NCBI RefSeq assembly: GCF_965641715.1
Contig: NZ_OZ282453.1
Direction: 5' to 3' (one strand)
Source of the DNA: Escherichia coli
GTDB lineage: Bacteria > Pseudomonadota > Gammaproteobacteria > Enterobacterales > Enterobacteriaceae
Length of the DNA stretch: 64,000 nucleotides
A program made the position numbers and the translations under genes. Below are positions 62,702 through 63,369 of the stretch, piece by piece. Position 1 is the first letter of the stretch; each line of letters starts with the position of its first letter. The notes below the pieces were generated by a model. It made no database searches. It was given only the letters and a program-made list of their open reading frames with translations, and had not been told where the DNA came from.

Positions 62702-63289
62702 TTATTTTGTTTTCTGACTCTTCTCTATTGCTCCGCTTGATTCTCCTGCGGGGTGGTAACGATAAATCGTCGATGTACCAATGCCGTAAATTATTGCCAG
62801 TTGTTTTCTGTCGTGACCGTTTTTAATCAGCCTTGCTATTTGCTCATGCTGTTCTTTTGTCAGCTTCGGGCGACGTCCGCCTGTGCGCCCCCGTGCGCGC
62901 GCTGCTGCCAGTCCGGCCAGTGTACGTTCAACAATTAATTCACGTTCCATTTCAGCCAGGGCACCCATCACGTGGAAGAAAAAACGCCCCATTGGAGAAG
63001 ATGTATCTATGCTGTCGGTCAGACTGCGAAAATTAATCCCTCGCTCCCGTAGTTCCCCGACGAGAGAAATCAGATGTTTCATGCTTCGCCCGAGGCGATC
63101 CAGTTTCCAGACAACCAGCGTGTCACCTTTTTGAAGACGCTTTAAAGCGCGTTTTAATCCCGGTCGGTCTGTCTTTGTCCCGCTTAATTTATCTTCAAAT
63201 ATTTGTTCACATCCTGCACAAACAAGAGCGTTTCGTTGCAGGTCTGTATTCTGGTCATTTGTTGATACCCTTACATAGCCAATCAGCAC
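62702..63289 (-). CDS. DNA invertase (serine recombinase, Gin/Pin/Hin/Cin family)
   Basis: 195 aa from GTG; catalytic Ser in YVRVSTNDQ; C-terminal HTH; alternative ATG at 63307. Confidence 0.8.
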   Translation of the reverse strand: MLIGYVRVSTNDQNTDLQRNALVCAGCEQIFEDKLSGTKTDRPGLKRALKRLQKGDTLVVWKLDRLGRSMKHLISLVGELRERGINFRSLTDSIDTSSPMGRFFFHVMGALAEMERELIVERTLAGLAAARARGRTGGRRPKLTKEQHEQIARLIKNGHDRKQLAIIYGIGTSTIYRYHPAGESSGAIEKSQKTK

Positions 63290-63343
63290 GCTGAATCTCC
63301 CGTCCAAAAGCGTAAATCATGCCATGCAGGTCAGAAACGGCCA

Positions 63344-63369
63344 TTATCTAAAACCTCGGTTTACAGGAA
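63344..63369. repeat. gix/hix-type inversion site TTATCTAAAACCTCGGTTTACAGGAA
   Basis: 25/26 match to phage Mu gixL as recalled; AAACC-TC-GGTTT core; 55 bp from invertase start. Confidence 0.7.

What the first reader, a model, noticed from the sequence alone, without database searches (positions are those of the whole stretch)
62702..63369. Intact Pin/Gin-family invertase with a near-consensus gix site in the second element; possible trans-acting invertase for the first
The invertase at 62702..63289 has the catalytic serine motif and a C-terminal HTH and sits 55 bp from a 26-bp site matching Mu gixL at 25/26 positions (as I recall the Mu sequence). Gin, Cin, Hin and Pin are known to complement each other. 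The first prophage has functional-looking sites but no invertase, so this enzyme could drive fibre switching in both elements. In addition, the invertase stub (20418..20546) and this gene are in inverted orientation about 42 kb apart, giving a substrate for homologous or site-specific chromosomal inversion.
Basis: partly seen in the sequence, partly recalled or inferred. Interest (0 to 1): 0.5.

Follow-up and report, generated by a model that had tools for sequence, protein, structure and literature searches.

The report
Ordinary prophage tail-fibre DNA invertase
This is the intact Gin-type DNA invertase and crossover site of a P88-like (P2-family) prophage, a well-known tail-fibre switch, which could plausibly also flip the invertase-less e14-type switch 43 kb away, as other prophage invertases are already known to do.

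Summary
Window 62702-63289 (-) encodes an intact 195-aa serine invertase. A 26-bp site 54 bp upstream of its start (63344-63369) matches both Mu gix sites at 25/26 positions.

The gene belongs to a P88-like (Xuanwuvirus) prophage inserted beside flk, and its protein differs from P88's annotated invertase at one residue. Residues 1-130 are about 97% Mu Gin; the DNA-binding domain is Hin-like. The first 107 nt of the gene, where such enhancers lie, are identical to Mu gin. Close relatives carry the roughly 3.1-kb fibre segment in both orientations, so the switch looks active. The partner site lies beyond the window.

The trans-action idea is plausible but unproven:
- The first element's two sites are identical to the e14 pix sites.
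- Its 41-codon pin stub keeps the enhancer-homologous region.
- UTI89 and IHE3034 share the stub yet differ by a clean flip.
- PinQ is published to invert the e14 segment in trans.

The proposed 42-kb inversion substrate is weak: 117 bp at 79.5% identity, and mismatched crossover cores (AA versus GA).

Verdict: a known kind of system, of low interest.

The parts
62702..63289 (-). Intact Gin/Hin-family serine DNA invertase gene (195 aa, GTG start), P88 type
   Evidence: ORF and sequence. Pfam Resolvase plus HTH_7. Mu Gin PDB sequence at E = 9e-101. Differs from the P88 invertase at one residue besides the start codon. Residues 1-130 are about 97% Mu Gin; residues 131 to the end are 48% Gin and roughly 64% Hin DNA-binding domain by my count of the printed alignment.
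63205..63267 (-). Predicted recombinational enhancer inside the 5' coding region. Two Fis-like 15-mers lie at gene nt 23-37 (TATCAACAAATGACC) and nt 71-85 (GTGCAGGATGTGAAC), with centres 48 bp apart. The proximal centre is 96.5 bp from the gix centre.
   Evidence: The first 107 nt of the gene are identical to Mu gin. Coordinates. In Hin the enhancer lies in the N-terminal coding region, about 100 bp from hixL (PMC2724282, PMC3798978). The degenerate motif alone is not enriched in the window, so this call rests on homology and position.
63344..63369 (.). gix-type 26-bp crossover site, TTATCTAAAACC|TC|GGTTTACAGGAA, proximal to the invertase
   Evidence: Unique in the window. 25/26 identical to both Mu gix sites. 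Identical in P88, TW10828 and 401651.
63355..64000 (+). Promoterless alternative tail-fibre C-terminal cassette with no N-terminus. Its frame opens inside gix and runs off the window end.
   Evidence: Open frame with Pfam Gp34_trimer. Annotated as 'tail fiber, missing N-terminus' in TW10828. In P88 the same cassette is joined to the constant part of the fibre gene.
62678..62703 (.). Bidirectional hairpin terminator between convergent gpU and the invertase
55824..62666 (.). P88-like tail module flanking the invertase: D (-), then FI, FII, E, T and U (+)
   Evidence: Pfam GpU and GPD. 96.9% identical to P88 over 8.3 kb. Same gene order in P88.
18405..18430 (.). Element 1 crossover site A, CTCTCGAAAACC|TT|GGTTTGGGAGAA, inside the fibre gene
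   Evidence: 26/26 identical to the K-12 e14 pix site.
20338..20363 (.). Element 1 crossover site B, TTCTCCCAAACC|AA|CGTTTATGAAAA
   Evidence: 26/26 identical to the K-12 e14 pix site.
18431..20337 (.). Element 1 invertible segment: fibre C-terminus A plus tfa on +, tfa' plus fibre C-terminus B on -
   Evidence: Pfam Caudo_TAP twice and Collar. A simulated flip gives an in-frame 265-aa fibre followed by a 200-aa tfa. The segment is flipped in TL20 and between UTI89 and IHE3034.
20418..20546 (+). Truncated pinE-type invertase stub (41 homologous codons). It retains the enhancer-homologous region: Fis-like sites at 20440-20454 and 20488-20502, with the proximal centre 96.5 bp from the pix B centre.
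   Evidence: Alignment with K-12 and CD45 pinE; homology ends near nt 122. Coordinates. The same truncation junction occurs in at least 146 E. coli genomes.

Best explanation
The gene is the DNA invertase of a P88-like (Xuanwuvirus, P2-family) prophage inserted next to flk.

Proposed mechanism. The enzyme is a Fis/enhancer-dependent small serine recombinase. Dimers bind the 26-bp gix site at 63344-63369 and a partner site about 3.1 kb away, inside the tail-fibre gene and beyond the window end. Together with Fis bound to an enhancer in the first ~85 nt of the invertase gene, they form an invertasome. The invertasome flips the segment and swaps the C-terminal receptor-binding part of the fibre and its chaperone.

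Shown here:
- an intact ORF with all catalytic and Fis-contact residues;
- a near-Mu gix site;
- a 5' region identical to Mu gin;
- both orientations of the segment among close relatives.

Inferred: catalysis, enhancer function, and the presence of the partner site in this genome.

Secondary, less certain inference (about 0.5). The same enzyme can act in trans on the orphan e14-type switch at 18405-20363. That switch keeps both pix sites and the enhancer-homologous part of its truncated pin gene.
For: Domains and homology.

Site.

Phage identity: 99.5% identity to P88 over U, the invertase and gix; 96.9% over 8.3 kb; gene order.

Activity of the switch:
- The window segment is inverted relative to P88.
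- TW10828 and P88 have collinear flanks with the 3.1-kb segment inverted.
- Partner sites with the same GA/TC core occur in P88, TW10828 and the same-site prophage of strain 401651.

Fis-dependence features:
- Q, R and L are present at the positions equivalent to Hin Q151, R154 and L155.
- K46, R47 and K50 are equivalent to Hin K47, R48 and K51.
- H106 and M114 are wild type (PMC3798978).

Enhancer region identical to Mu gin.

Trans-action:
- pix sites identical to e14.
- Stub geometry.
- Clean flip between UTI89 and IHE3034 despite the shared stub.
- 67 versus 79 genomes in the two orientations.
- Published trans inversion of the e14 P segment by PinQ/PinR, of Salmonella H by Fels-2 Fin, and of Mu G by PinE (PMC12529663).
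Against: - The partner gix site of this copy is outside the window.
- No sigma-70-like promoter was found upstream of the gene by the simple scan, so expression is unknown.
- Orientation differences among P88-like relatives involve elements 1-3.5% diverged, so they could be old events.
- The degenerate double Fis motif is not statistically enriched.
- For trans-action, no data link this enzyme to pix sites. Its DNA-binding domain differs from PinE (about 57% identity) and from Gin (48%). Other invertases elsewhere in the genome could be responsible. TL20 lacks a prophage at the flk-pdxB site, yet its segment is flipped and diverged.
Confidence: 0.8

Rival explanations
1. The invertase works only on its own prophage. 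The first element's switch is flipped by a different invertase elsewhere in the genome (PinE, PinQ or PinR type, or plasmid or Mu-like), or is currently frozen.
For: TL20 lacks a prophage at the flk-pdxB site, yet its element-1 segment has the opposite orientation. Stub-bearing ST95 genomes flip without any demonstrated P88-type enzyme. PinQ/PinR are reported as the dominant trans-acting enzymes on e14 in K-12 (PMC12529663). Only 64 kb of this genome is visible.
Against: Cross-complementation among Din-family invertases is broad; PinE inverts Mu G and Salmonella H (cited in PMC12529663). This enzyme's catalytic domain is about 97% Gin, and it uses half-sites of the same TTNTCNNAAACC type. The cis apparatus of element 1 is intact.
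Confidence: 0.4
2. The gene is intact but functionally silent or inactive. The orientation differences among relatives are relics or products of homologous exchange of cassettes.
For: No promoter-like site was found. Relatives with opposite orientation are 1-3.5% diverged. Cassette replacement does occur at such sites: in TL20 the flanks are 99.95% identical but the segment only 93.6%.
Against: Every catalytic and regulatory residue is conserved, and the protein differs from that of the inducible phage P88 at one residue (PMC5285337). The junctions of the inverted blocks coincide with the gix repeats. P2-like prophage segments of this kind were seen flipping in culture in EPEC (PMC4272514).
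Confidence: 0.1
3. One reading: the stub and the intact gene, or pix and gix, form a substrate for a 42-kb chromosomal inversion.
For: The stub and gene are in inverted orientation 42.9 kb apart. pix B and gix are also in inverted relative polarity.
Against: The only inter-element repeat is 117 bp at 79.5% identity, with a longest identical run of 23 nt. That is at or below the usual minimum for RecA-dependent exchange (my knowledge). The cores are AA/TT versus TC/GA, and a single core base-pair change in one hix site prevents ligation in the recombinant orientation (PMC4817059). The relatives examined (TL20, RM10740, 401651) are collinear with the window across this chromosomal region.
Confidence: 0.03

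Closest known systems
DNA invertase and invertible tail-fibre segment of Escherichia phage P88 (Xuanwuvirus P88, NC_026014)
   Same: 99.5% nucleotide identity across the end of U, the invertase and gix. The invertase protein differs at one residue besides the start codon. Same gene order, identical gix site, and a 3.1-kb segment with two fibre C-termini and two chaperones.
   Different: The window copy has the segment in the opposite orientation to the P88 deposit. The cassette next to the invertase is 92% identical to the one expressed in P88. It is integrated beside flk, and the far end is not visible.
Phage Mu Gin / gix / sis G-segment inversion system
   Same: Catalytic domain residues 1-130 about 97% identical. 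GTG start. First 107 nt of the gene identical. Site 25/26 identical. Site-to-gene spacing and upstream region homologous.
   Different: The C-terminal DNA-binding domain is only 48% identical to Gin and closer to Hin. The host element is a P2-family phage, not Mu. The partner site in relatives deviates (TTATCGAATACC half-site).
e14 Pin / P-segment system of E. coli K-12 and its trans inversion by PinQ/PinR (Kirigo et al. 2025, PMC12529663)
   Same: Element 1 has both pix sites 26/26 identical. It has the same StfE-type leader ORF and a TfaE-like chaperone (87.5% identity). Its stub is about 95% identical to the pinE 5' end by my count. The idea that an invertase from one prophage flips the segment of another is exactly what that paper reports.
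   Different: Here pin is truncated after 41 codons and followed by unrelated cargo. Cassette A differs from K-12 StfP. The candidate trans enzyme is Gin/P88-type, not PinQ/PinR.
Fels-2 Fin acting on the Salmonella H segment (Kutsukake et al. 2006, as cited in PMC12529663 and PMC4272514)
   Same: An invertase from a P2-family prophage acts in trans on a separate invertible segment.
   Different: Different host and target. In Salmonella the target keeps its own invertase, Hin. The primary paper was not readable here, so this comparison rests on those citations.

Membership tests
Din-family (Gin/Hin/Cin/Pin) Fis/enhancer-dependent DNA invertases | Small serine recombinase: N-terminal resolvase catalytic domain plus C-terminal HTH | tested here: met
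   Pfam Resolvase 1.3e-50 and HTH_7 9.2e-14. Gin PDB sequence at E = 9e-101.
Din-family (Gin/Hin/Cin/Pin) Fis/enhancer-dependent DNA invertases | Catalytic serine (Gin S9) and a conserved catalytic core | tested here: met
   YVRVS9T is present. Residues 1-130 differ from Gin at 3 positions besides the start codon.
Din-family (Gin/Hin/Cin/Pin) Fis/enhancer-dependent DNA invertases | Residues specific to Fis/enhancer-dependent invertases: Hin Q151, R154 and L155 in DBD helix 1; basic helix-B residues 47, 48 and 51 | tested here: met
   EQIARL aligns with Hin EQISRL. K46, R47 and K50 are present. The residue list comes from PMC3798978.
Din-family (Gin/Hin/Cin/Pin) Fis/enhancer-dependent DNA invertases | Two 26-bp crossover sites in inverted orientation with identical 2-bp cores flanking the segment | tested here: inconclusive
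   One site is in the window. The partner lies beyond base 64000. Partner sites with a matching GA/TC core are present in P88, TW10828 and the same-site prophage of strain 401651.
Din-family (Gin/Hin/Cin/Pin) Fis/enhancer-dependent DNA invertases | Cis recombinational enhancer with two Fis sites in the 5' coding region of the invertase gene | tested here: inconclusive
   The sequence is identical to Mu gin over nt 1-107. Two Fis-like 15-mers lie 48 bp apart, 96.5 bp from gix. The motif alone is not significant. Fis binding cannot be tested here.
Din-family (Gin/Hin/Cin/Pin) Fis/enhancer-dependent DNA invertases | The segment actually inverts | tested here: met
   Indirect evidence only. Both orientations occur among close relatives, with junctions at the gix repeats. 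No within-culture data.
Xuanwuvirus (P88-like Peduoviridae) prophage | Nucleotide similarity and gene order of P88 | tested here: met
   96.9% identity over 8.3 kb. Identical order D(-) / FI-U(+) / invertase(-) / fibre cassettes. Only the tail end of the prophage is in the window.
e14-type Pin / P-segment switch (element 1) | Two pix sites in inverted orientation flanking two fibre C-terminus and chaperone pairs | tested here: met
   Both sites 26/26 identical to K-12 e14. Both orientations give complete ORFs.
e14-type Pin / P-segment switch (element 1) | Adjacent functional pin gene | tested here: not met
   Only 41 pinE codons remain before a stop, followed by unrelated DNA.
Trans-controlled orphan invertible segment (as PinQ on e14, Fin on H) | Inversion of the segment depends on an invertase encoded elsewhere | not testable with these tools
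   Comparative support only: a clean flip between UTI89 and IHE3034, which share the truncated stub, and 67 versus 79 genomes per orientation. The enzyme responsible is unknown.

The most novel reading that the evidence does not exclude
The truncated pin gene of the first element persists because its first ~120 nt are a cis-acting Fis enhancer. On this reading it is a pseudogene kept for a DNA-level function. It would make the e14-type fibre/StfE switch an orphan module that is driven entirely by invertases of other prophages, here the P88-type enzyme, possibly as a host-controlled anti-phage switch like PinQ-StfE2.

Consistent with this:
- The same truncation point, just beyond the enhancer-homologous region, occurs in at least 146 complete E. 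coli genomes.
- The two orientations are nearly equally frequent (67 versus 79 genomes).
- There is a clean flip within ST95.
- The K-12 pinE deletion mutant is reported as locked despite having PinQ/PinR. My inference is that the deletion removes the enhancer.
Probability: 0.4. Interest if true: 0.4.

Novelty: already known. Interest (0 to 1): 0.22.

Why it matters
Little turns on the invertase itself. It is the standard host-range switch of a described phage lineage and is already annotated as a DNA invertase in P88 and in RefSeq genomes.

The modest added value is comparative. An e14-type switch that lost its own invertase but kept its sites and the enhancer-bearing 5' stub is widespread in E. 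coli, including the ST95 strains UTI89, S88, APEC O1 and IHE3034. It still changes orientation.

That fits the recently published picture in which invertases of one prophage control segments of another, with possible anti-phage consequences. It also suggests a simple experiment to test whether the stub acts as a cis enhancer.

Tried and rejected
1. Finding the source genome, to see the partner gix site and other invertases. An exact 200-nt scan of genome contigs gave 0 hits. The best E. coli complete genomes reach only 96.9-98.1% identity in the regions tried. I used same-site relatives instead (401651).

2. RM10740 matched the flk junction at 99.9% but carries no invertase or invertible segment; an IS66 element sits there. 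It could not serve as a model.

3. Enhancer sequences from the primary literature. The Johnson review, Kutsukake 2006 and Hengen 1997 are not held. Open papers give only the location, not the sequence. The Fis-site assignment therefore rests on homology, my recollection of the hin sequence, and the 48-bp and ~97-bp geometry.

4. Statistical support for the Fis sites. The degenerate double motif occurs at 5 loci versus about 3.9 expected, so I rejected it as independent evidence.

5. A promoter for the invertase. None was found by the consensus scan.

6. Further gix/pix-like sites that could bound a larger inversion, for example around the inverted FI-U block. None were found apart from one weak chance-like match at 22789. 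The FI-U arrangement is a lineage trait shared with P88.

7. Whether UTI89 or IHE3034 carry an intact Din-family invertase. The tools offer no way to search within a single genome, so I did not pursue this.

Full report
**Observation**

The minus-strand ORF ending at 62702 is open to a TTG at 63307. By homology its start is the GTG at 63289, as in Mu gin, which gives 195 codons. Pfam finds Resolvase (1.3e-50) and HTH_7 (9.2e-14). The protein aligns end to end with the Mu Gin crystal-structure sequence (E = 9e-101) and includes the YVRVS9T catalytic motif.

A 54-bp spacer separates the start from TTATCTAAAACCTCGGTTTACAGGAA at 63344-63369. This 26-mer is unique in the window, with none expected by chance even at three mismatches. 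In the Mu record AF083977 the 26-mers at both annotated G-segment boundaries are TTATCCAAAACCTCGGTTTACAGGAA.

The stub at 20418-20546 is also real, and a tblastn of the invertase finds no other resolvase-like sequence in the window.

**What the element is**

The region from the end of gpU through the invertase to gix is 99.5% identical to Escherichia phage P88. P88 is an inducible, plaque-forming P2-like phage (PMC5285337), now classified as Xuanwuvirus.
- Window 55115-63381 is 96.9% identical and collinear with P88.
- The gene order is the same as in P88: D on one strand; FI, FII, E, E', T and U on the other; then a convergent invertase; then the fibre cassettes.
- The prophage sits next to flk. 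E. coli TL20 has flk and pdxB adjacent with no prophage there.
- Strain 401651 has the same prophage at the same site, 97.3% identical over 10.9 kb.

The invertase protein differs from P88's at one residue besides the start codon. It is a mosaic relative to Mu: residues 1-130 are about 97% Gin, while residues 131 to the end are 48% Gin. The helix-turn-helix region resembles Hin more, about 64% over 45 residues by my count of the alignment.

**Anatomy and likely mechanism**

The frame that opens inside gix at 63355 encodes a tail-fibre C-terminal cassette without an N-terminus (Gp34_trimer domain). It is annotated that way in TW10828.

In P88, TW10828 and 401651 a partner site lies about 3.1 kb away, inside the fibre gene and in inverted orientation. 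It reads TTCCTG[T/C]AAACCGAGGTATTCGATAA and has the same GA/TC core. In this genome it should lie near 66.4 kb, outside the window.

The first 107 nt of the gene are identical to Mu gin. In Hin the enhancer lies in the N-terminal coding region, about 100 bp from hixL, and is needed in cis by the wild-type enzyme (PMC2724282, PMC3798978). At the homologous position here are two Fis-like 15-mers, at gene nt 23-37 and 71-85. Their centres are 48 bp apart, and the proximal centre is 96.5 bp from the gix centre.

The degenerate motif alone is not enriched in the window (5 loci versus about 3.9 expected). The enhancer call therefore rests on homology and geometry, plus my own recollection of the hin sequence.

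The residues that PMC3798978 lists as specific to Fis-dependent invertases are all present. Positions H106 and M114, where hyperactive mutations map, are wild type. A bidirectional hairpin at 62678-62703 separates the gene from gpU. No promoter-like site was found.

**Evidence that the switch is active**

Relative to the P88 deposit, window 63340-63996 matches the far end of the P88 segment in inverted orientation. TW10828 and P88 have collinear flanks (99.0% and 97.6%) with the whole segment inverted, and the junctions overlap the gix repeats. Similar P2-like prophage segments were seen flipping within cultures of EPEC (PMC4272514). This evidence is indirect but consistent.

**The first element**

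Its two sites are 18405-18430 and 20338-20363. Both are 26/26 identical to the two pix sites of K-12 e14, whose P segment inverts experimentally (PMC4272514, PMC12529663).

Simulating the flip at the core dinucleotide gives an in-frame 265-aa fibre followed directly by its 200-aa chaperone. The switch is therefore structurally intact.

The stub is pinE codons 1-41. Homology with pinE of K-12 and CD45 ends near nt 122. It retains the pix-to-start spacer and both Fis-like sites with exactly the same 96.5-bp and 48-bp geometry. Only the protein is lost; the cis apparatus is kept.

**Trans-action**

- The same truncation junction (...AAGTCCGAGACCTAGGGC...) is present in at least 146 complete E. 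coli genomes: 67 with the window's cassette next to the stub and 79 with the other cassette there.
- UTI89 and IHE3034 both carry the stub. Their flanks are 100% identical (1776 and 3864 bp), while the 1939-bp segment is 99.9% identical but inverted. The alignment overlaps fall on the pix sites.
- The orphan switch has therefore flipped after the truncation, which requires an invertase supplied from elsewhere.
- TL20 carries the window's element at 99.95% identity in the flanks, but its segment is flipped and only 93.6% identical. The identity break falls at the pix sites, which points to cassette exchange there.

The literature gives direct precedent. PinQ/PinR of Qin and Rac invert the e14 P segment in trans, and that paper cites Fin of Fels-2 acting on the Salmonella H segment and PinE inverting Mu G (PMC12529663). 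The same paper reports that the pinE deletion mutant is locked. I interpret this as loss of the enhancer inside pinE; that is my inference, not theirs.

Whether the P88-type enzyme is the one acting on element 1 in this genome is not shown.

**The 42-kb inversion idea**

The only sequence shared between the two elements is 20419-20534 versus 63288-63173, 117 bp at 79.5% identity. The longest identical run is 23 nt, which makes it a very poor substrate for homologous recombination.

Site-specific exchange between pix and gix would join cores AA/TT with TC/GA. A single core base-pair change in one hix site prevents ligation in the recombinant orientation (PMC4817059). The relatives I examined are collinear with the window across this chromosomal region.

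**Comparison and novelty**

This is a member of the Gin/Hin/Cin/Pin family in a described phage lineage, already annotated as a DNA invertase. Trans control of an e14-type segment by a foreign prophage invertase is published. The one mildly new point is comparative: the enhancer-bearing pin stub is widespread and its segment still flips.

**Limits**

- The source genome was not found.
- The partner site, other invertases, expression and Fis binding are all untested.

Noticed in passing
window 55824-62666: The FI-FII-E-E'-T-U tail block is inverted relative to the canonical P2 order, with D and ogr on the opposite strand. D is therefore separated from its usual operon. The same arrangement occurs in P88, TW10828, 401651 and RM10740, so it is a lineage trait. 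No gix-like sites bound the block.
   Followed up: partly
window 20547-23147: The DNA just after the pin stub is variable cargo. Here and in TL20 it holds a 447-aa ORF (20721-22064; no Pfam hit, weak Lit and PD-Lambda-2_B hits) and a 200-aa ORF (22545-23147). ST95 genomes have a 629-aa DUF262 protein instead. Homology between the window and ST95 genomes ends near 20700. This looks like a defence or cargo hotspot between the stub and intS (23482-24675).
   Followed up: partly
window 18412-20356 versus L004 (E. coli TL20): TL20 carries the same element with flanks 99.95% identical, but the invertible segment is flipped and only 93.6% identical. The drop in identity falls exactly at the two pix sites, which suggests whole-cassette exchange at the crossover sites.
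   Followed up: partly
window 19891-20391 (-), and fadL at 28721-30067: A StfE-like ORF starts outside the invertible segment with the same short leader as K-12 StfE (MPFACYF.IFINVGLGE). In K-12 the inversion product StfE2 is reported to block T2 adsorption at FadL/OmpF (PMC12529663). Cassette A here differs from K-12 StfP, so any equivalent effect is unknown.
   Followed up: partly
window 53697-54927: A TagO/VasI-like ORF (297 aa) and a zinc-ribbon ORF (110 aa) lie between flk and the hok/ogr end of the P88-like prophage. 235 complete E. coli genomes share this junction. It is unclear whether these genes are prophage cargo or a chromosomal islet.
   Followed up: partly
L010 (E. coli RM10740), locus 22222-41901: A P88-like prophage at the same flk site lacks the invertase and the invertible segment. 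A tfa gene and an IS66 element follow gpU. This is a natural invertase-less variant.
   Followed up: no
window 20406-20414: A run of nine G replaces the ribosome-binding-site region upstream of the stub's ATG. K-12 reads GGGGGATTTAAC and CD45 reads GGGAGATCTACC at this position.
   Followed up: no
window 53624-53671: A 48-bp near-perfect palindrome (91.7%) lies in the flk-TagO intergenic region, about 200 bp beyond the flk ORF (52434-53429). It may be a terminator or an attachment-site remnant.
   Followed up: no
window 27802-27907 and 27988-28093: A 106-bp direct repeat (81% identity) lies inside the 343-aa ORF at 27325-28356.
   Followed up: no
window 30000-36000: The chromosomal backbone (fadJ, fadI, sixA and the yfc fimbrial genes) reaches only 98.1% identity to the best of 5,426 complete E. 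coli genomes. The exact source genome is not in the species-representative collection. The host may belong to a sparsely sampled Escherichia lineage.
   Followed up: partly
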